DNA of 64,000 bases from Malacoraja senta (lineage: Eukaryota). The DNA is taken from NCBI GenBank assembly GCA_038087875.1, contig CM075988.1, positions 10,294,001 to 10,358,000 on the forward strand. The letters run 5' to 3'. Below, piece by piece: positions 1,326-58,391 of the stretch. The notes under the pieces are model-generated. The model worked only from the letters and a program-made list of their open reading frames with translations, made no database searches and was not told where the DNA came from. A program made the position numbers and the translations under genes. Position 1 is the first letter of the stretch. Every line of letters begins with the position of its first letter.

Positions 1326-4300
1326 TGTGGCAGGGGGATGGGAGCATGAGCAGAGAGACAGAGGGGTGTAAAATGAGGGTAGAAGCAATAGGTAGCAAGG
1401 TGAAAAGTAAAAGTGGCAGGCAGACAAATCCAGGGCAAAAATCAAAAAGGGCCACTTTTCAACATAATTGTATAAGGGGTAAGAGTGTTGTAAATACAAG
1501 CCTGAAGGCTTTGTGTCTCAATGCAAGGAGCATTCATAATAAGGTGGATTAGTTGAATGTGCAGATAGTTATTAATGAATATGATATAGTTGGGATCACG
1601 GAGACATGGCTCCAGGTTGACCAAGGCTGGGAGCTGAACATCCAGGGATATTCAATATTAAGGAGGGATAGGCAGAAAGGAGGTGGGGTAGCGTTGCTGG
1701 TTAGAGAGGAGATTAACGCAATAGAAAGGAAGGATGTGGAGGATGTAGAATCGATATGGGTAGAGCTGCGAAACACTATGGGGCAGAAAACGCTAGTGGG
1801 AGTTGTGTACAGGCCACCTAACAGTAGTAGTGGAGTTGGGGATGGCATCAAACAGGAAATTAGAAATGCGTGCAACAAAGGTAAAACAGTTATAATGTGT
1901 GACTTCAATCTACATATAGATTGGGTGAATCAAATTGTCAGGGGTGCTGAGGAAGAGGATTTCTTGGAATGTATGCGGGATAGTTTTCTAAACCAACATG
2001 TAGAGGAACCAACGAGAGAGCAGGCTATTCTAGACTGGGTATTGAGTAATGAGGAAGGGTTAGTTAGCAGTCTTGTTGTGCATGGCCCCTTGGGCAAGAG
2101 TGACCATAATATGGTTGAGTTCTTCATTAGGATGGAGAGTGACATAGTTAATTCAGAAACAAGGGTTCTGAACTTAAAGAAAGGAAACTTTGAGGGTATG
2201 AGACGTGAATTGGCCAAGATAGACTGGCAATTGATTCTTAAAGGGTTGAGGGTGGATATGCAATGGAAGGCATTTAAAGACCGCATGGATGAACTACAAC
2301 AATTGTTCATCCCAGTATGGCAAAATAATAAATCAGGGAAGGTAGTGCATCCGTGGATAACAAGGGAAATCAGGGATAGTATCAAAACAAAAGATGAAGC
2401 ATACAAATTATCCAGAAAAAGCAGCCTAACAGATGACTGGGAGAAATTCAGTCCAGCATAGGAGGACAAAGGGCTTAATTAGGAAAGGGAAAATAGATTA
2501 TGAAAGAAAACTGGCAGGGAACATAAAAATTGACTGCAAAAGCTTTTATAGATATGTGAAGAGAAAAAGAATAGCTTAAACAAATGTAGGTCCCTTGCAG
2601 TCAGAAACAGGTGAATTGATCATGGGGAACAAGGACATGGCAGACCAATTGAATAACTACTTTGGTTCTGTCTTCACTGTGGAAGACATAAATAATCTGC
2701 CGGAAATAGCAGGGGACCGGCGGTCAAATGAGATGGAGGAACTTAGTGAAATCCAGGTTAGTCGGGAAGTGGTGTTAGGTAAATTGAATGGATTAAAGGC
2801 TGATAAATCCCCAGGGCAAGATAGGCTGCATCCCACAGTGCTTAAGGAAGTAGCCCCAGAAATAGTGGATGCATTAGTGATAATTTTTCAAAACTCTTTA
2901 GATTCTGGAGTAGTTCCTGAGGATTGGAGGGTAGCAAACGTAACCCCACTTTTTAAAAAGGGAGGGAAAGAGAAAACGGGGAATTACAGACCAGTTAATC
3001 TAACATCGGTAGTGGGGAAACTGCTAGAGTCAGTTATTAAAGATGGGATAGCAGCACATTTGGGAAGTGGTGAAATCATTGGAAAAAGTCAGCATGGATT
3101 TATGAAAGGTAAATCATGTCTGACAAATCTTATAGAATGTTTTGAGGATGTAACTAGTAGAGTGGATAAGGGAGAACAAGTTGATGTGTTATATCTGGAC
3201 ATTCAGAAGGTTTTCGAAATGGTCCCACATAAGAGATTAGTATGCAAACTTAAAGCACACGGTATTGGGGGTTCAGTATTGATGTGGATAGAGAACTGGC
3301 TGGCAGACAGGAAGCAAAGAGTAGGAGTAAACGGGTCCTTTTCAGAATGGCAGGCAGTGACTAGTGGGGTACCGCAAGGCTCAGTGCTGGGACCCCAGCT
3401 ATTTACAATATATATTAATGATTTGGACGAGGGAATTGAATGCAACATCTCCAAGTTTGCGGATGACACGAAGCTGGGGGGCAGTGTTAGTTGTGAGGAG
3501 GATGCTAGGAGGCTGCAAGGTGACTTGGATAGGTTGGGTGAGTGGGCAAATGCATGGCAGATGCAGTATAATGTCAATAAATGTGAGGTTATCCACTTTG
3601 GTGGCAAGAACAGGAAAGTAGACTATTATCTGAATGGTGGCCGATTAGGAAAAGGGGAGATGCAAAGAGACCTGGGTGTCATGGTACACCAGTCATTGAA
3701 AGTAGGCATGCAGGTGCAGCAGGCAGTGAAGAAAGCGAATGGTATGTTTGCATTCATAGCAAAAGGATTTGAGTATAGGAGCAGGGAGGTTCTAGTGCAG
3801 TTGTACAGGGCCTTGGTGAGACCACACCTGGTGTATTGCATACAGTTTTGGTCTCCTAATCTGAGGAAATACATTCTTGCCGTAGAGGGAGTACAGAGAA
3901 GGTTCACCAGACTGATTCCTGGGATGGCAGGACTTTCATATGAAGAAAGACTGGATAGACATGGCTTGTACTCGCTGGAATTTAGAAGATTGAGGGGGGA
4001 TCTTATAGAAACTTACAACATTCTTAAGGGGTTGGACAGGCTAGATGTAAGAAGATTGTTCCCGATGTTGGGGAAGTCCAGAACAAATGGTCACAGTTTA
4101 AGGATAATGGGGAAAGTCTTTTAGGACCGAGATGGAAAATAACAATTTCACACAGAGAGTGGTAAATCTGTGGAATTCTCTGCCACAGAAAGTAGTTGAG
4201 GCCAGTTCATTGGCTATATTTAAGAGGGAGTTACATGTGGCCCTTGTGGCTAGAGGGATCAAGGGGTATGGAGAGAAGGCAGGTACAGGTTACTGAGTTG

Positions 4301-19764: not shown

Positions 19765-19964
19765 NNNNNNNNNNNNNNNNNNNNNNNNNNNNNNNNNNNN
19801 NNNNNNNNNNNNNNNNNNNNNNNNNNNNNNNNNNNNNNNNNNNNNNNNNNNNNNNNNNNNNNNNNNNNNNNNNNNNNNNNNNNNNNNNNNNNNNNNNNNN
19901 NNNNNNNNNNNNNNNNNNNNNNNNNNNNNNNNNNNNNNNNNNNNNNNNNNNNNNNNNNNNNNNN
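19765..19964. other. Assembly gap
   Basis: 200 consecutive N. Confidence 1.
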
Positions 19965-52734: not shown

Positions 52735-52811
52735 ATATGATAAACAAGAGTGGACCCAGCAGCAATCTCAACTGCACCACTGGTCAACGCCTTCCAATCT
52801 GCGAAAACAAC

Positions 52812-52972
52812 TGTAGTGTATTTGCGTACTTGGAACTGACTCAAAAGAACACTCAGATACAGGAGTAAACTGACAAGCTTCTTTATTCTAGGATGCCACC
52901 TTGAGTCTCTCCCAGCGCATGCGTCCCCTCGCACAAGACATAACATATGCTAATTATATTACATACATCACA
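52812..52972 (-). repeat. 3' LTR
   Basis: 161-bp direct repeat, preceded on the minus strand by the PPT. Confidence 0.93.
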
Positions 52973-52986
52973 CTGCTCCCCCTTTA
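52973..52986 (-). promoter_or_regulatory. Polypurine tract
   Basis: AAAGGGGGAGCAG lies immediately before the 3' LTR on the minus strand. Confidence 0.85.
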
Positions 52987-53174
52987 ACTTGGAGGCAGGT
53001 AACACCATTTACATTATATACATTACACTGCTCCCCCTTTATCTTGGAGGCGAATAACACCATTTCTATTACATCTTACATTACATCCTCATAACTGTAA
53101 TAATCGTATCTAAACTTAGCACTTATAATGGTTCATTCCACTCATCTTCCTTAAACCAAATACATTACCCCTTG

Positions 53175-53700
53175 CTTTATGTTTTATCCTTTTCCGTTCC
53201 CTTCTGTGTAAATTGCACACTCTTTCTAATCACTCTAGCTCTACCTGTATCTCTGCATCTTCCCTTTTTAAATATCCTAATCAAATTAGCAGATTTCTTC
53301 CTGTTCTTGATATTCTGCTACAGTTAACATTTCCTCTGTTTCTGTTCCTTATTTGTAGGTGGGATCTGACACATGACTGCAGGTTTTTGTTTTTCAGCAG
53401 CTTCCTCTGTCGCTCAATTTCCTGGCGCTGCGTATTTATCTGCTCTTGTTGTATAATAACATTCTGCAATGCATAAACATTTGTCCATTGCTCAGTGAAG
53501 GAAGCTCCATGCTGGACTATAGTGAAGTGTCCCAATCGCAATCGGTCCTGCATACTTTTGTCTCGACCGACAAGCCTCTCTTCTTTAGACTATTCTATTA
53601 ACAGCTTTTAGCTCATCGTCACACATTTATTTAACCATTCTTTGTATCGTTTAAGCCTTTTCTGTTGTTCATCTATTTGTCTTCTTACATCACCTTTCTG
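53175..53700 (-). pseudogene. TLK2: Chimeric ORF, part 3: captured tousled-like kinase 2-like coiled-coil region, intron-less, decayed
   Basis: [91 protein letters not shown]. After frameshifts it continues [18 protein letters not shown] and LGYLKREDAEIQVELE*LERVCNLH. Confidence 0.88.
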
Positions 53701-54540
53701 GTTATTCATCAAGAAGTTGGATCTATATTGTCTTTGCAATACAACAGTGGCTTTGATTTGCGCTCTGTATATTTTTCTTACTACATAAGCATGGTAGTGA
53801 GACTGCACTACAACTGCTGTATAAATCAGTTTGAGGAGGTCTTTCCTATATCGTTTAAGCCTTTTGTATCATTTAAGCCTTTTCTGTTGTGCATCTATTT
53901 GTCTCCTTAGGTCTTTCCTATACCAACTCATATGGAGTACTGACTGCACTTTTACAGTAGCCCTCTTTTGTTTAACCCACTGCCTAACCACCATACTCTT
54001 GTAGGCAGCCTGAATGGTAATAGTTGCATACCTCATTGACTAATATTGCACAAACTGGGAATGCCCTATTTTGCATGCTTTGTACCATCTCTGGATCGAA
54101 ATGACTGCTTGTCGCATAGCTCTGTACCATATCCTTAATCGGTAACCATGGTATGCAGCTTGCAGAGTGACTACAGCCGCCTTTTGCATCAAGAAATGCT
54201 TTCTTGTAATGCACATCCTTATGAATGACTTAATATGGCATGCTGCCTTGTTTTTCTCAACCAATTCTCTGGCTTTAATCCCACGGTAGAAGGCCCGAGT
54301 ACAAACCACTGCTTTTCTCAAACTATTATATCTCACTTGGACATCTCTTATCTGGCAAGCTCTGTATCATTGCTGTACCGCAATGGCAGACCAGCGTAAT
54401 TTCTTGAAATACTGACGCTGTTTATGCATCTGATAATAAGTCTGTATGACCTTGGCAGATTTGTGCATGCACCGCAATTGCTTTTGAACAACCATTCCTC
54501 GGTAGGCAGCCTGAAGCAGTACAACGCTTCTGCGTACCTT
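53700..54540 (-). pseudogene. Chimeric ORF, part 2: captured ASPM-like IQ-repeat array (same frame, 3 point stops)
   Basis: Motifs LQAAYRGM, IQTYYQMH, VQQ*YRA, LQAAYHG, IQRWYKA, IQAAYKSM, VQSHYHA and LQRQYRS at roughly 23-27 aa spacing. Confidence 0.85.
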
Positions 54541-54543
54541 CAT

Positions 54544-55592
54544 AATAATAATAATAATAATCCATTTTATTTGCTGGCGCCTTTTTAAAAACCCAAGGAC
54601 ACCTTACAGGACATAAAATCACAACAACAACAACAACAACAAATACCAAGGTCTCAAGGACACCCCACAGAGACCATCAGATAAGAAACACACAATCGGA
54701 ACAAAACAAACCATAAAGACACCACAATACACAAATCAAGGACAGAGTTAATTCCAAAAGCACAAAAAGAAAATCAGAAACACAACTTGAGGAGAGAGCA
54801 GCGGCAGCCAAACCGCGCCAGCGTTCACTCTCCCCTCCGACCGCCATCTTGAACACAGACCAACAAAGACAAAGACACAGCACACAAAAATCATCCCCCC
54901 ACAAAGACCACCACTGTGGGGGAAGGCACAATGTCCAGTCCCCAACCCCAGTTCGCCCAAAGTCAGGCCCAATGAGGCCTCCACAGTTGCCTCTGCAGAG
55001 GCCCGATGTTCCTGGCCGTTCTCACCGGGTGCGGTTGCCCCGACGTCGGGAGAGTCCTCGCAGCGGCTGGGATGGCTGGAACGGCCGATTTCCCACCGGC
55101 ATCTGTGGCACCTGAAGCCGACAAGGCCGTGCCGATTTGGAGCTCAGAGGCTCCCGATGTTGGAGTCGGCGCCGCCGCCCGCGGCTGGTTGCTCCACAGT
55201 CCCGCAGCCCGGAGGTGTTGAGCTCGGCGGTCACAGCTCACCGGTGCTCCAGCGCGTCGATCCAGCGTGGCGACCCAGGGAAGGCATCGCCCGCTCCGCT
55301 CCGCGATAGCGCTCCAGCGCTGTGCCGCCACCGAAGCTGAAGGTCCCTGCCAGGAAACGCCGCTCCACGCCCGCTGGTAGGCCTCAAAGACGGGTCGACT
55401 GGGCAGCCCAGAGAAATGCTGCCTCACCGACCAGGTAGGGACCTAGAAATGGTTTCCCCCTAACCCCCCCACATTAAAAGGCAAAATTCTCCAACAGACA
55501 GAGACATAAAAAAAATTAAAACTAAAAAAAAAAGTGCATTTAACGGACGGCTGCTGTTTAGCAGCCGTTCCCCAAGATGGCTCCTCCTCCTC
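54544..55592 (-). mobile_element. Non-coding retroposon of about 1.05 kb with an L2-like 3' tail, inserted in the chimeric ORF
   Basis: The minus strand ends ...GTAAGGTGTCCTTGGG..AAAGGCGCC..AATAAAATGG(ATT)n. ATG is on both sides, and excision restores ...K-T-Y-M-K-V-R-R in frame. Confidence 0.8.
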
Positions 55593-56339
55593 CATGTAAG
55601 TCTTGCGATCACTTTCCATTTGAAGGTGTGCCCTATAATGGTTTTGTACCATTATAGCTGCCAATCTCATTGCCTTGTATTGACGGTATACTCTGTGCAT
55701 TCTAAATGCTGCTTGTATTACCGTTGCTGCCTTCTGTTTGTTCCGGATCTCTCTCCGTACCTTCATACCCCTGAATGCAGCTTGAATAGCTAGGGTTGCC
55801 CTTTGGATGGCAATTTCCCTTTGCCTTTGACTTCTGTCACTTTGCATTTGCCCTTTGTCCCTTTGCACTAGACCTTTGTTGCTTTGCACTTGAACTTTGT
55901 CCTTTTGCACTTGACCTTGGTCCTTTTGCACTTGATCTTGGTCCCTTTGCACTTGACATTTGTCCTTTTGCACTTGACCTTTGTCCTTTGGCACTTGACC
56001 TTTGTCCTTTTGCACTTGACTTTTGTCCTTTGAGGGACTACCTGCCTTCTTTAGTTCAGGCTCCTTGCCTCTGGATGCCCTTGGAGGTTTTGGCGAGAAA
56101 TGAGCCATTAATGCCTCCTTACACTCCTCGTACATTTTATCTGTGGGCTTTGCTGGCTGCAGTAACATACGTAAGGTCTGATAACCCACTCTTCCTAAGC
56201 CTAATATGAACCATGCTCTCTTCTTCTCCTCTGCAGCGATATCATTGGAAATGAAACAAGCCTCCAAGACTTCGGTCCATTTCTCAAAATTACACCCAGA
56301 ATCTAACTGGGGCACGTTTCCTACAATTTGAAAAGCCAT
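55593..56339 (-). pseudogene. Chimeric ORF, part 1: Gypsy (Mag/K02A2.6-like) Gag N-terminus, heptad repeats and IQ motifs
   Basis: FEKWTEVLEACFISNDI..KKRAWFI..G..YQTLRMLLQPAKPTDK.YEE..EALMAHFSPKP, then (KDKGQVQ)n, then IQAAFRGMKVRR, IQAAFRMHR and VQNHYRAH. Confidence 0.88.
55845..56030. repeat. 21-bp tandem repeat (about 8 units), coding in frame
   Basis: TTGCACTTGACCTTTGTCCTT units translate as KDKGQVQ on the minus strand. Confidence 0.92.
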
Positions 56340-58094
56340 GCTACCTGTTGCTATTCAGGTGCACTATATTCTGTTCTCTCACTGTGTTTTTTTGCACTAG
56401 ACTTAATCCTTTTACACACTAAGAAGTGATCCAGCCCACTGACTATTACTAATTCTTATAATAATAGATTCATACTATTAACCAACATTTCATATTAATA
56501 GCCATTTAGAACATTTTAAACCATATTCCTTCTATGCACACAGATTTACTATTAATAACAGTGACCAATGCATTACATTTAAACAGTCCTGCTTTTACTG
56601 TGCCCATGAATTTCATTCACGGAGGGCTTTTATTATGAAGGATTTCACAGCTCCAGCTTGTGGCCTGTGGACTCTGGTGCATCCTTGACATCTCGAGCTG
56701 TTCCCACTGGTACCTTTGCTGATGGCTTCAACGGACCTCCACTTTTGCTGCTTTTGCTGGCTCCCCGGGGCTTCACCGTTACTTTTGCTGCCGCTGGCTC
56801 GCTGCCAAGTCAACTCCCGCTGCTCCGCTGACTTGCCTGCCCGCTGGCTCCACAGCCCTCCTGGCTGCTACTGGACCCGCTGCTTGGCTCGTCGCTGGCT
56901 CCCGTGGACACCCTGTGGAAGGTAAGTAGCCCCTGGTTTCTGCTGCTGGTCCCCGCTGCTCCAAGCATCGGGACTGTGCCTCTCTCGTGGTAGGCTTTCT
57001 CCAATCTCGGTCGTCTCCCGCGACTGGGCTTTCTCTGCTTTCTCCCCCGACCGGGCTGACTCTGCTCCCGACCGGCTGAAGTGCTTGAGTGCTGTGTCCC
57101 GCTTCTCTCGTGCGGACCCACTCTTCGCTCAGGGCCGGACTTCCTCTCACGTCCGGGCTTTCCCCGTTCTCGGCCGTCCCTTGCGACCGGGCCTTCACGG
57201 CTCTCGGCTTCTCTCGCGAGCCTGTCCGCTTTTCTGCTCATGGTCAACTCTTGTGACCGGGCTTTCTCTCACGATTGGTCCGCTTCTCTCGCAGCCAGTT
57301 TAAAAAAAAATTTACTCTGCTTGTCCGCTTCTCACGCAGCCGGCTTTCTCCCTCGACCAGGCTGAATCTTCTCCCGACCGGGCTGACTCCGTTTCGTCGG
57401 TGGCTTCACCGGACCTGTCCGTGGCTTACCCGGTACACGGCCCTGGAACTCACCCGAAGTCGGTGGCGGCTGCTGGGCCTCTTCTGCCCCTTTGCCGTGA
57501 CTGCACGGCCCTGGAAAATGTTCCAGGTAAGTTGACACTGTCGCTGTCCTGCTGGTTAGGCTTCCAGCTTTCGGCTGTGTTCTTCGGTGACACTTACTTA
57601 CTGCCACACTTGTTTTCCTTGCTTCCTGTTCCGTTTCTTTTATTTTTGCTTGGTGCCGTTCCACTTTTTTTCCAAACACAACCTCTTCTTTTTAATCTTT
57701 TTTTTTTTCTTGACAGCCCTTCTTTGGTCTTTTCTGTTCTTTTATCCTCGTTGCCTCGTTATCCTTGTTGTGTGTTCTGGTATAACAATTCACCTAAAAC
57801 TTAGCTGTGCAAAGATTATTCAGCTTGAGGAATTCGACAAAAAAAACTCAGTCTAAAATGTATAACAATCCGAAGGACGACATCTTGCCACGTAGACACA
57901 ACATAGAGATAGCCTGACAAACTCGCAGACTTATACAGCTGATGTTTTAAACTACAGTCCCCGGCATAGAGGGATCTGCAGGCCTCTCATGTCCAGCTCG
58001 CAAACAACTGCGACACAACTCCGTATCTACTGTTTAAACTGTTAAACAATCCTGCGTGTTGCAAAACAGTCCTGCGGGTGAGTACACAAACTCT

Positions 58095-58112
58095 ATCCCA
58101 CCCTCGTCGCCA
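58095..58112 (-). promoter_or_regulatory. Primer-binding site complementary to the tRNA-Ser(GCT) 3' end
   Basis: Minus strand reads TGGCGACGAGGGTGGGAT, 2 nt from the LTR. The plus strand ATCCCACCCTCGTCGCCA matches the vertebrate tRNA-Ser(GCT) 3' end as recalled. Confidence 0.88.
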
Positions 58113-58114
58113 AT

Positions 58115-58274
58115 TGTAGTGTATTTGGGTACTTGGAACTGATTCAAAAGAACACTCAGATACAGGATAAACTGACAAGCTTCTTTATTCTAGGACGCCA
58201 CCTTGAGTCTCCCCCAGCGCATGCGTCCCCTCGCACAAGACATAACATATGCTAATTATATTACATACATCACA
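58115..58274 (-). repeat. 5' LTR
   Basis: 160-bp direct repeat with AATAAA on the minus strand, adjacent to the PBS. Confidence 0.93.
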
Positions 58275-58391
58275 ACAACCTTCTACCACCATCCTCTGAC
58301 TCCTTCAACAAAGTCAATTTTGTGCCCAGTTGCATAATCACCCCGCATCCCGTGTGATCTCACTTTTCGGACCAATCTACAATGTGGACCT

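What the first reader, a model, noticed from the sequence alone, without database searches (positions are those of the whole stretch)
53175..56339. LTR retroelement encoding a Gag-ASPM(IQ)-TLK2(coiled-coil) chimeric protein
Seen: inside a bona fide LTR element, removing one later 1052-bp insertion gives a single minus-strand frame from the ATG at 56339 to about 53390. It has no frameshift, only point stops, two of which look like CGA>TGA decay. The frame runs Gag N-terminus, heptad repeat, more than 12 IQ motifs, then TLK2-like coiled coils, for an ancestral protein of roughly 700 aa. Known: ASPM is a calmodulin-binding spindle-pole protein with a long IQ array, and TLK2 coiled coils mediate kinase oligomerisation. 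Inference: the element replaced pol with pieces of two host mitotic/cell-cycle genes. Frame conservation across every junction suggests the fusion protein was selected in the master element, for example to tether particles to the spindle or germline, or to act as a dominant-negative module. I do not know of a description of this family.
Basis: partly seen in the sequence, partly recalled or inferred. Interest (0 to 1): 0.92.

Follow-up and report, generated by a model that had tools for sequence, protein, structure and literature searches.

The report
Retrotransposon carrying ASPM and TLK2 fragments
This is a dead copy of a pol-less LTR retrotransposon family of a cartilaginous fish that picked up pieces of the host ASPM and TLK2 messages and multiplied them; the fused reading frame shows no sign of being kept by selection.

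Summary
On the minus strand, 58274..52812 is a complete LTR element. It has 160/161-bp LTRs, a 5-bp target duplication, a primer-binding site matching the host tRNA-Ser(GCT), and a polypurine tract. Its only long frame starts at 56339. It reads Gag N-terminus (85 aa), Gag linker, a 21-nt minisatellite, about 340 aa of ASPM IQ array, then TLK2 coiled coils. A private 1052-bp retroposon splits the frame.

The ASPM piece is 71% identical to skate ASPM. The TLK2 piece matches five exons of the host's own TLK2 gene with the introns removed (about 90% nt), so it came from spliced mRNA. The cargo sits in at least hundreds of copies, including older subfamilies. An autonomous Gypsy relative with the same primer-binding site is present in the genome.

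The claim of selection is not supported. pN/pS in the real frame equals that of shifted frames. Variants are spread evenly over codon positions. The young master had already lost the TLK2 frame and gained a shared stop. None of 18 sister copies is open.

Verdict: a new member of a known kind (LTR-mediated retroposition, then amplification as a non-autonomous element). Interest is moderate.

The parts
58275..58279 (-). Target-site duplication GTTGT (5' side)
   Evidence: Read from the sequence. Identical to 52807-52811.
58115..58274 (-). 5' LTR, 160 bp, TG...CA, with AATAAA
   Evidence: 4 mismatches and 1 indel against the 3' LTR. 511 first-look candidates in the own genome; of the 40 scored, one is the query itself and the others are 95-97% identical.
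58095..58112 (-). Primer-binding site, 18 nt
   Evidence: 18/18 complementary to the 3' end (+CCA) of a host tRNA-Ser(GCT) gene, L055:1440-1524.
56340..58094 (-). 5' leader with a purine-rich repeated stretch (~57000-57400)
   Evidence: Parts of it are 70-90% identical to the leader of the autonomous relative. Repeats.
56085..56339 (-). Gag N-terminus, residues 1-85, starting at ATG 56339
   Evidence: 662 library proteins at E<=1e-3. 14 of 15 relatives tested carry Gypsy gag/pol Pfam domains; the 15th is the chimera itself. 67-68% aa identity to the Gag of in-genome autonomous elements up to residue 85 exactly.
55816..56084 (-). Gag linker remnant, then a 21-nt (7-aa) minisatellite
   Evidence: TRF finds period 21, 10.2 copies, at 55819-56032. 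The linker matches a Gag stretch 346 nt further downstream in the autonomous element. Copy number varies by multiples of 21 among copies.
55593..55835 (-). ASPM-derived IQ array, first part
   Evidence: P0001 169-250 = Amblyraja ASPM 2802-2883, 72%. It is adjacent in ASPM to the second part.
54544..55592 (-). Later insertion of an unrelated ~1-kb retroposon with an (ATT)n tail; 7-bp duplication at 55589-55595 and 54537-54543
   Evidence: Absent from 29 of 29 other loci. It has its own family of 6062 first-look candidates; of the 40 scored, one is the query itself and the others are 82-94% identical.
53701..54543 (-). ASPM-derived IQ array, second part; it contains a ~60-nt duplicated TLK2 fragment at 53850-53911
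   Evidence: P0002 1-283 = Amblyraja ASPM 2882-3141, 71%. The duplicate appears and is absent from the older copies L039, L043, L045.
53181..53700 (-). TLK2 cDNA fragment (aa ~191-376, coiled coils, no kinase domain). In frame from 53700 to 53386, out of frame from ~53385 to 53285, back in frame from 53284 to 53181
   Evidence: 5O0Y chain 65-167, E 2.7e-42, and chain 235-269. Five exons of host TLK2 (C10) lie contiguous in the element, 463/513 nt identical.
53230..53232 (-). Stop codon shared by the young subfamily (end of the master's frame)
   Evidence: Present in the window and in 15 of 18 sister copies; absent in the old copy L045.
52973..53180 (-). 3' untranslated part with polypurine tract AAAGGGGGAG (52976-52985) and a 55-bp tandem duplication (52954-53074)
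52812..52972 (-). 3' LTR, 161 bp
52807..52811 (-). Target-site duplication GTTGT (3' side)

Best explanation
The window holds one decayed copy of a non-autonomous Ty3/Gypsy-type LTR retrotransposon family of a cartilaginous fish.

The family keeps the cis parts needed for reverse transcription and integration: LTRs, a tRNA-Ser(GCT) primer-binding site, the leader plus the first 255 nt of gag, and the polypurine tract. Most of gag and all of pol have been replaced by two pieces of host coding sequence. One is about 1 kb of the ASPM IQ array. The other is about 0.55 kb of spliced TLK2 mRNA (coiled coils only).

The pieces were most likely joined by template switches of reverse transcriptase onto co-packaged host mRNAs (LTR-mediated retroposition). 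This step is inferred.

The chimera was then copied in trans by the proteins of a related autonomous Gypsy element, which shares its LTR architecture and primer-binding site. That the partner exists is shown; that it mobilised the chimera is inferred.

Copying happened in several waves and gave at least hundreds of copies. The last wave was a star-like burst at about 2% divergence. After insertion each copy decays neutrally. The window copy gained 6 stops, a 3-nt deletion and a 1052-bp retroposon.

The long in-frame Gag-IQ-TLK2 frame is best read as a legacy of joining coding sequences, not yet erased in a short master lineage. It is not a protein under selection.
For: Element anatomy. Primer-binding site matches a host tRNA-Ser(GCT) gene 18/18.

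Gag N-terminus:
- 662 hits.
- Relatives are Gypsy gag-pol proteins.
- Homology to the in-genome autonomous Gag stops at residue 85.

Autonomous relative L053:
- LTR pair 98% identical, 8456 bp apart.
- gag, RT, RNase H and integrase in Gypsy order.
- Its LTR aligns with ours, with the same ends and the same primer-binding site start.

ASPM origin:
- All 20 listed hits are ASPM-type.
- 71% identity to Amblyraja and 70% to Rhinoraja ASPM, against 52-55% to stingray and sharks and ~40% to bony fish.
- The two halves abut in ASPM.

TLK2 origin from spliced mRNA:
- Host TLK2 exons lie at C10:14.37-14.41 Mb.
- Five of these exons are contiguous in the element, with break points inside the first and last.
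- Identity: window 463/513 nt, old copy L039 525/556 nt (my sums).

Multi-copy:
- Cargo DNA gives 258 candidates. Apart from the query's own locus, 39 of the 40 scored are other copies at 91-97%, near full length.
- TLK2 protein gives 2805 candidates. Of the 65 matches listed, 64 are intronless stretches within aa ~160-389 and one is a short second piece of a listed copy.
- Older subfamilies with LTRs 76-83% identical carry the same architecture.
- The same chimera is a predicted 290-aa protein of Leucoraja erinacea.

Neutral decay:
- Star-like tree with terminal branches 0.012-0.030 and internal branches <=0.003.
- A mean of 2.1 premature stops per sister copy, and 0 of 18 open.
- pN/pS equals the frame-shifted controls.
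- Codon-position counts are uniform: 105/95/85 for singletons, 38/29/30 for shared variants, 8/11/13 for fixed differences.

Mechanism in print: PMC5131818 (abstract and passages read).
Against: - All junctions (Gag-linker, linker-repeat, repeat-ASPM, ASPM-TLK2) are in frame. For the two host junctions alone, chance gives about 1 in 9.
- The three deletions in the TLK2 part of the young master (1+31+1 nt against L039) sum to a multiple of three, so the frame is regained.
- The young master's frame was open for about 685 codons.
- Two single comparisons look lower than their controls: TLK part young-vs-L045 0.36 against 0.57 and 0.73; gagN young-vs-L045 0.53 against 1.37 and 1.24. The counts are small.
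- Only 32 fixed differences separate the young copies from both old copies in IQ+TLK, so the tests have little power to see weak constraint on the master lineage.
- Only 21 copies (19 young, 2 old) were analysed. They were chosen as the best matches to the window copy, and two of them are duplicates of one locus.
- Mobilisation in trans and template switching are inferred, not shown.
- The host ASPM gene was not found in the held assembly, so its junctions could not be examined at the DNA level.
Confidence: 0.85

Rival explanations
1. The Gag-IQ-TLK2 fusion protein is made and was selected in the master element. It might tether particles to the spindle through calmodulin-type light chains. Or it might act as a dominant-negative partner of TLK2/TLK1 through coiled coil 1.
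For: In-frame junctions and a ~685-codon open frame in the young master. The cargo has been retained through several subfamilies. The retained TLK2 stretch includes the region that the authors call CC1, which is needed for TLK2 dimerisation and for binding TLK1 and LC8 (PMC6023931, passages read). A gene model exists in Leucoraja.
Against: pN/pS is not below the shifted-frame controls. There is no third-position excess among 285 singleton, 97 shared or 32 fixed variants. The TLK2 part behind CC1 was frameshifted and truncated by a shared stop in the master that made the last burst. Only 85 aa of Gag remain, with no capsid C-terminal part and no zinc knuckle, so particle incorporation is doubtful. 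This last point is an inference.
Confidence: 0.07
2. The cargo matters as RNA, not as protein. Hundreds to thousands of copies about 90% identical to TLK2 (and similar to ASPM) mRNA feed small RNAs that act on the host genes. Alternatively, the internal RNA carries packaging signals that keep it in the family.
For: High copy number. About 90% nt identity to the host TLK2 exons over 513 nt. The sequence evolves without protein constraint, yet the segment is kept in all subfamilies seen.
Against: No small-RNA or expression data could be obtained. Retention is also expected for any internal segment of a successful non-autonomous element.
Confidence: 0.05
3. It is a host gene (a short ASPM paralogue, as the public annotation of one copy says), or a domesticated gag-derived gene.
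For: NCBI names XP_055489032.1 'ASPM homolog isoform X1'.
Against: It sits between LTRs with a target duplication, a primer-binding site and a polypurine tract. There are hundreds of dispersed copies. It lacks the ASH and CH domains and the ASPM C-terminus. The copies are broken.
Confidence: 0.02

Closest known systems
LTR-mediated retrocopies / chimeric retrocopies in animals (Tan et al. 2016, PMC5131818)
   Same: Partial host mRNA sequence sits inside an LTR element between element sequences. Introns are lost. Break points lie inside exons. Two parental genes are joined ('exon shuffling'). The cargo is in the sense orientation and in frame. Such units can transpose again as non-autonomous elements.
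   Different: The cases described there are mostly single or low-copy and young. Here the chimera became a family with at least hundreds of copies and several subfamilies. Microsimilarity at the switch points could not be tested for lack of the host ASPM sequence.
Maize Bs1 (as cited in PMC5131818; otherwise recalled)
   Same: An LTR retrotransposon without pol whose internal frame fuses gag with pieces of several host genes.
   Different: Bs1 is a plant element with few copies and a reported expressed hybrid protein. Here the host is a vertebrate, the copy number is high, and there is no evidence of expression or constraint.
Acutely transforming retroviruses with Gag-onc fusions (recalled)
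   Same: gag/pol is replaced by spliced host cDNA fused in frame to the Gag N-terminus. The element is replication-defective and helper-dependent.
   Different: Those cargos are intact catalytic or signalling domains under strong selection in somatic tumours. Here the cargo is only an IQ helix array and coiled coils, it is spread through the germ line, and it drifts neutrally.
Non-autonomous LTR elements (LARD, TRIM) (recalled; a TRIM paper was seen only in a search listing)
   Same: They keep the LTRs, primer-binding site and polypurine tract, lack pol, and are mobilised in trans by a related autonomous family.
   Different: Their internal regions are usually non-coding and of element origin. 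Here 1.5 kb is host coding sequence.

Membership tests
LTR retrotransposon (structural definition) | Two direct LTRs with TG...CA ends, flanked by a short target-site duplication | tested here: met
   160/161-bp LTRs, TG..CA, 4 mismatches plus 1 indel; GTTGT on both sides.
LTR retrotransposon (structural definition) | Primer-binding site complementary to a host tRNA 3' end next to the 5' LTR, and a polypurine tract next to the 3' LTR | tested here: met
   18/18 match to tRNA-Ser(GCT) of the same genome plus CCA. AAAGGGGGAG lies 3 nt from the 3' LTR.
Ty3/Gypsy (Metaviridae-type) lineage | Gag related to Gypsy Gag; pol order protease-RT-RNase H-integrase | tested here: inconclusive
   The Gag N-terminus is related to Gypsy gag-pol proteins. 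The element itself has no pol. In the in-genome relative L053 the order is RT, RNase H, integrase. Lineage membership therefore rests on Gag, the LTR and the primer-binding site.
Autonomous retrotransposon | Encodes its own reverse transcriptase and integrase | tested here: not met
   The frame's pieces hit only IQ in Pfam. The internal region is fully accounted for by leader, Gag remnant, repeat, ASPM, TLK2 and the 3' part.
LTR-mediated chimeric retrocopy | Host sequence lacking introns, partial, embedded between element sequences | tested here: met
   Five host TLK2 exons are contiguous, and the break points lie inside the first and last exon.
LTR-mediated chimeric retrocopy | Microsimilarity at the template-switch points | tested here: inconclusive
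   Only the TLK2 side could be read. The host ASPM was not found in the held assembly.
ASPM orthologue/paralogue | N-terminal ASH domain, CH domains, long IQ array, conserved C-terminal region | tested here: not met
   Only a ~340-aa IQ stretch (Amblyraja ASPM ~2802-3141) is present.
Tousled-like kinase | C-terminal protein kinase domain | tested here: not met
   The match ends at TLK2 aa ~376, before the kinase domain. There is no Pkinase hit.
Domesticated gag-derived gene (PNMA/RTL type) | Single conserved locus without LTRs, under purifying selection | tested here: not met
   Hundreds of LTR-flanked copies. pN/pS is not below the controls.

The most novel reading that the evidence does not exclude
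The cargo is not a mere passenger. One possibility is that a translated Gag-IQ-TLK2(CC1) protein from young copies binds calmodulin-type light chains and TLK1/TLK2/LC8, and so bends cell-cycle or chromatin control in germ cells in favour of the element. The other is that the many TLK2- and ASPM-like copies generate small RNAs that regulate these two mitotic genes in skates. The tests here have little power on the short master lineage (32 fixed differences), so they do not exclude either.
Probability: 0.07. Interest if true: 0.8.

Novelty: new member of a known kind. Interest (0 to 1): 0.4.

Why it matters
It is a clear vertebrate example of an LTR retrotransposon that fused pieces of two unlinked host genes and then spread the fusion through the genome. 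That is exon shuffling by reverse transcription, followed by amplification.

It has a practical side. Copies are annotated as 'ASPM homolog' genes. They add at least hundreds of TLK2-like and ASPM-like pseudo-coding stretches, by candidate counts. These will mislead gene prediction, orthology calls and read mapping for two genes studied in brain-size and genome-stability work.

It also gives a dated series (capture, older subfamilies, last burst) for studying how long a captured frame stays open without selection.

Tried and rejected
- **RNA evidence.** No RNA holder was listed. The four runs laid were contigs, one 'probably DNA' and the others only guessed to be RNA, and gave short fragments. 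Nothing can be said on expression. The runs carry 7 organism codes in 11 studies, all with a share below 0.4. I did not use this for distribution.
- **A hint only.** A 6541-letter contig (X17) matches 55619-55802 with 18 differences. In three runs (X15, X16, X17) a contig departs at 55802, near the upstream ASPM junction. It may be the host ASPM.
- **Host ASPM gene.** It was not found in the held assembly with eel ASPM (stricter first look), the eel C-terminus, the Amblyraja C-terminus or the Amblyraja IQ stretch behind the cargo. So there is no DNA-level dating or junction analysis for ASPM.
- **Pfam on the Gag N-terminus alone.** Only sub-threshold DUF7041 and DUF7083 hits.
- **Shared insertions as proof of transposition with a broken frame.** L030, L034, L035 and L037 share a ~1.1-kb block, but their flanks are more than 99% identical. 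They are duplicates of one locus, not separate insertions. L026 and L031 are identical. L040, L041, L042 and L046 share a ~2.7-kb block; matches to the same subfamily on their contigs C18, C2735 and C2015 lie about 60-68 kb apart, which may mean large tandem units. All rejected as evidence.
- **Shared stops at codons 306, 382, 391, 472 and 583.** They only partly follow the tree and recur in unrelated copies, so they are not safe evidence either way.
- **The 'open_frame_aa' column.** It did not agree with my own stop maps (for example L010), so it was not used.
- **Earlier findings of the scan.** Nothing by place, sequence or words.
- **tRNA genes.** None in the window.
- **Dropped before the copy analysis.** 9 of 29 young loci had an incomplete 5' part (L012, L015, L017, L024, L025, L030, L034, L035, L037, L038 were listed; L036 and L043 were dropped for internal duplication or insertion). 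The final set was 18 young copies, the window, L039 and L045.
Full report
**1. What is in the sequence**

Read on the minus strand, the window holds a complete LTR element from 58274 to 52812.
- The two LTRs (58274..58115 and 52972..52812) are 160 and 161 bp. They start with TG and end with CA, and they differ by 4 substitutions and one 1-nt indel.
- The pentamer GTTGT lies directly outside both LTRs.
- Two bases behind the 5' LTR comes TGGCGACGAGGGTGGGAT. The same genome holds a tRNA-Ser(GCT) gene (L055:1440-1524) whose 3' end plus CCA is complementary to all 18 bases.
- AAAGGGGGAG lies 3 nt before the 3' LTR.

**2. The frame**

- From the ATG at 56339 the frame is open for 249 codons, to 55593.
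- It resumes at 54540 and runs to 53386 with five point stops and no frameshift.
- The 1052 bp between the two parts are a later insertion. They carry a 7-bp duplication, ATG[G/A]AGG, at both ends and an (ATT)n tail.
- None of 29 other loci of the family has the insertion, and 21 of 29 show the intact junction.
- The inserted sequence belongs to a separate repeat family with 6062 first-look candidates.
- A database protein (P0023) reads ...DRKTYMKVRRSVVLLQ... straight across the junction.
- Against 18 sister copies, the window copy has no private frameshift before codon ~630 and one private 3-nt deletion.

**3. What the frame is made of**

(a) *Gag N-terminus.* Residues 1-85 are the N-terminus of a Gypsy-type Gag.
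- 662 library proteins match at E<=1e-3.
- 14 of the 15 relatives scanned carry Retrotrans_gag/PNMA, zinc knuckle, protease, RT, RNase H or integrase domains. The 15th is the chimera itself.
- In-genome autonomous elements (L050-L052) match residues 1-85 at 67-68%, and the match stops exactly there.

(b) *Gag linker and minisatellite.* About 20 residues follow that correspond to a Gag linker just before the zinc knuckle of the autonomous Gag. This has expanded into a 21-nt minisatellite, whose length varies among copies by multiples of 21.

(c) *ASPM IQ array.* About 340 residues of IQ array follow.
- All 20 listed hits to the IQ part are ASPM-type proteins (best E 1e-106).
- With full-length ASPMs, identity is 71% to Amblyraja radiata (aa 2882-3141) and 70% to Rhinoraja. 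It is 52-55% to a stingray and sharks, and about 40% to bony fish.
- The piece before the 1052-bp insertion (P0001 169-250 = aa 2802-2883) and the piece behind it abut in ASPM.
- A loose pattern finds 12 IQ cores in register, plus two degenerate positions.

(d) *TLK2 coiled coils.*
- P0002 282-384 matches PDB 5O0Y chain 65-167 at E 2.7e-42.
- The 120 best database hits listed are TLK2-type, with elasmobranch TLK2 at 81% on top.
- Chain 235-269 matches 53284..53180 in the main frame.
- Between 53385 and 53285 the TLK2-derived sequence is out of frame.
- There is no kinase domain.

**4. Origin of the TLK2 piece**

The host's own TLK2 gene lies on contig C10. Its kinase exons are 86-97% identical to Amblyraja TLK2, apart from two weaker, stop-containing matches at 62% and 77%. 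In the 20 kb upstream, tblastn finds seven matched stretches (exons) for aa 160-408.

The element copies align to five of these exons, and the exon ends are adjacent in the element. The introns, 1.1 to 3.3 kb long, are gone, and the outer break points lie inside exons. So the cargo came from spliced mRNA.

Nucleotide identity to the host exons (my sums):

| Copy | Identical / aligned nt | Percent |
|---|---|---|
| Window | 463/513 | 90.3% |
| Two sister copies | – | 89.7-90.9% |
| Old copy L045 | 514/557 | 92.3% |
| Old copy L039 | 525/556 | 94.4% |

The ASPM array lies in one large exon in known genes (recalled), so it says nothing on splicing. The host ASPM was not found in the held assembly.

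**5. The family**

- The LTR has 511 first-look candidates. Of the 40 scored, one is the query itself and the others are 95-97% identical.
- The cargo DNA 53386-54543 has 258 candidates. Apart from the query's own locus, 39 of the 40 scored are other copies at 91-97%, near full length.
- A skate TLK2 protein finds 2805 candidates. Of the 65 matches listed, 64 are intronless stretches within aa ~160-389 and one is a short second piece of a listed copy.
- Eel ASPM finds 417 candidates, and all 39 scored lie in one and the same ASPM interval.
- These are candidate counts, not verified copy numbers. Some loci are segmental duplicates.
- Older copies (L039, L043, L045) have LTRs only 76-83% identical to ours but carry the same Gag-repeat-IQ-TLK2 order. 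They lack the ~60-nt duplicated TLK2 fragment that sits inside the IQ array of the young subfamily.
- The same chimera is a predicted protein of Leucoraja erinacea, named 'ASPM homolog isoform X1' by its source.

**6. The helper**

L053 is an 8.6-kb element with LTRs 98% identical. It has a 291-aa Gag frame, RT, RNase H and integrase in that order, and a nested LINE on the other strand. Its LTR aligns with ours along its length. The alignment includes the AATAAA region, the ...ACACAACA end and the following ATAGGCGACGAG. A compatible autonomous lineage is therefore present. That it mobilised the chimera is inferred.

**7. Is the fusion protein selected?**

I compared 18 sister copies, the window copy and two old copies in the window's frame, without making any consensus.

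- *Tree.* The young copies form a star, with terminal branches of 0.012-0.030 and internal branches of at most 0.003.
- *Breakage.* Each sister copy has 0-5 premature stops (mean 2.1) and 0-5 frameshifting indels. None of the 18 is open from the ATG to the family stop.
- *Shared stop.* A stop at 53230-53232 is shared by the window and 15 of 18 sisters but is absent from L045, so the last master already had it.
- *Master deletions.* Against L039, the young master also has deletions of 1, 31 and 1 nt in the TLK2 part. These destroy the TLK2 reading for about 35 codons.
- *pN/pS.* Pooled pN/pS in the true frame for IQ+TLK is shown below. The third row is the two old copies compared with each other.

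| Comparison | True frame | Shifted frames |
|---|---|---|
| Young vs young | 0.68 | 0.57, 0.84 |
| Young vs old copies | 0.64, 0.57 | 0.62-0.87 |
| L039 vs L045 | 0.69 | 0.61, 0.74 |

- *Codon positions.* Counts of variants in IQ+TLK at positions 1/2/3:

| Variant class | Positions 1/2/3 | p |
|---|---|---|
| Singletons | 105/95/85 | 0.35 |
| Shared variants | 38/29/30 | 0.47 |
| Differences fixed between young and both old copies | 8/11/13 | 0.55 |

- *Expected stops.* With only about 38 fixed changes on that lineage, roughly 1-2 new stops would be expected by chance (my estimate). An open frame is therefore no evidence of constraint.

Points on the other side:
- All junctions are in frame.
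- The three deletions sum to a multiple of three.
- Two small comparisons fall below their controls: TLK young-L045 0.36, gagN young-L045 0.53.

I read the whole as neutral drift of a passenger, with low power to exclude weak selection.

**8. Comparison with what is known**

The structure fits LTR-mediated retroposition as described for flies, mosquito, zebrafish, chicken and mammals. That description includes chimeras of two parental genes, in-frame ORFs and re-mobilisation as non-autonomous units (PMC5131818, abstract and passages read). That paper cites maize Bs1 as the classic plant case.

TLK2 CC1 is needed for dimerisation and for TLK1/LC8 binding (PMC6023931, passages read). This is why a dominant-negative idea is not absurd, but nothing here supports it.

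Four full-text searches found no description of an ASPM/TLK2-bearing retrotransposon. Subscription journals and repeat databases were not searchable.

**9. Verdict**

The claim of selection is not supported. This is a new member of a known kind: a vertebrate case notable for its high copy number, and also a source of mis-annotation. Interest 0.4.

Noticed in passing
window 54544-55592: A ~1-kb retroposon with an (ATT)n tail and a 7-bp target duplication, inserted in the sense orientation into the IQ array. Its family has 6062 first-look candidates in the genome; the scored copies other than the query itself are 82-94% identical.
   Followed up: partly
window 53850-53911 (also 53641-53687 vs 53863-53909): A ~60-nt fragment of the start of the TLK2 piece is duplicated inside the IQ array, followed by an 18-nt tandem. 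The older copies L039, L043 and L045 lack it, so it arose within the family.
   Followed up: partly
window 52954-53074: A 55-bp unit holding the polypurine tract and the first bases of the LTR is tandemly repeated 2.2 times just inside the 3' LTR.
   Followed up: no
window ~57000-57400: A purine-rich, internally repeated stretch in the 5' leader (27-nt and 39-nt repeats). It gives 152-aa open frames of low complexity and matches the autonomous leader only in part.
   Followed up: no
L040, L041, L042, L046 (C2735, C18, C997, C2015): Copies with an extra ~2.7-kb block inside the IQ array. On C18, C2735 and C2015, matches to the same subfamily lie about 60-68 kb apart. They look like parts of large tandem or segmental duplications rather than separate insertions.
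   Followed up: partly
L030, L034, L035, L037; L026, L031: Loci on different contigs share flanks at more than 99% (or are identical). These are segmental duplicates or redundant contigs in the assembly, and they inflate copy counts.
   Followed up: yes
G000 (whole assembly): The host ASPM gene was not found with four protein queries, although host TLK2 (C10) and a second TLK gene (C6180) were found exon by exon. The ASPM locus may be missing or withheld in the held assembly.
   Followed up: partly
L053:4622-7435 (minus strand): A 937-aa open LINE-type frame (endonuclease plus RT) nested inside the autonomous Gypsy relative.
   Followed up: no
window 19765-19964: A run of 200 N (assembly gap or withheld stretch).
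   Followed up: no
database protein P0023 (XP_055489032.1): A public gene model named 'ASPM homolog isoform X1' in Leucoraja erinacea is a copy of this retrotransposon's Gag-repeat-IQ frame. This is a likely mis-annotation.
   Followed up: partly
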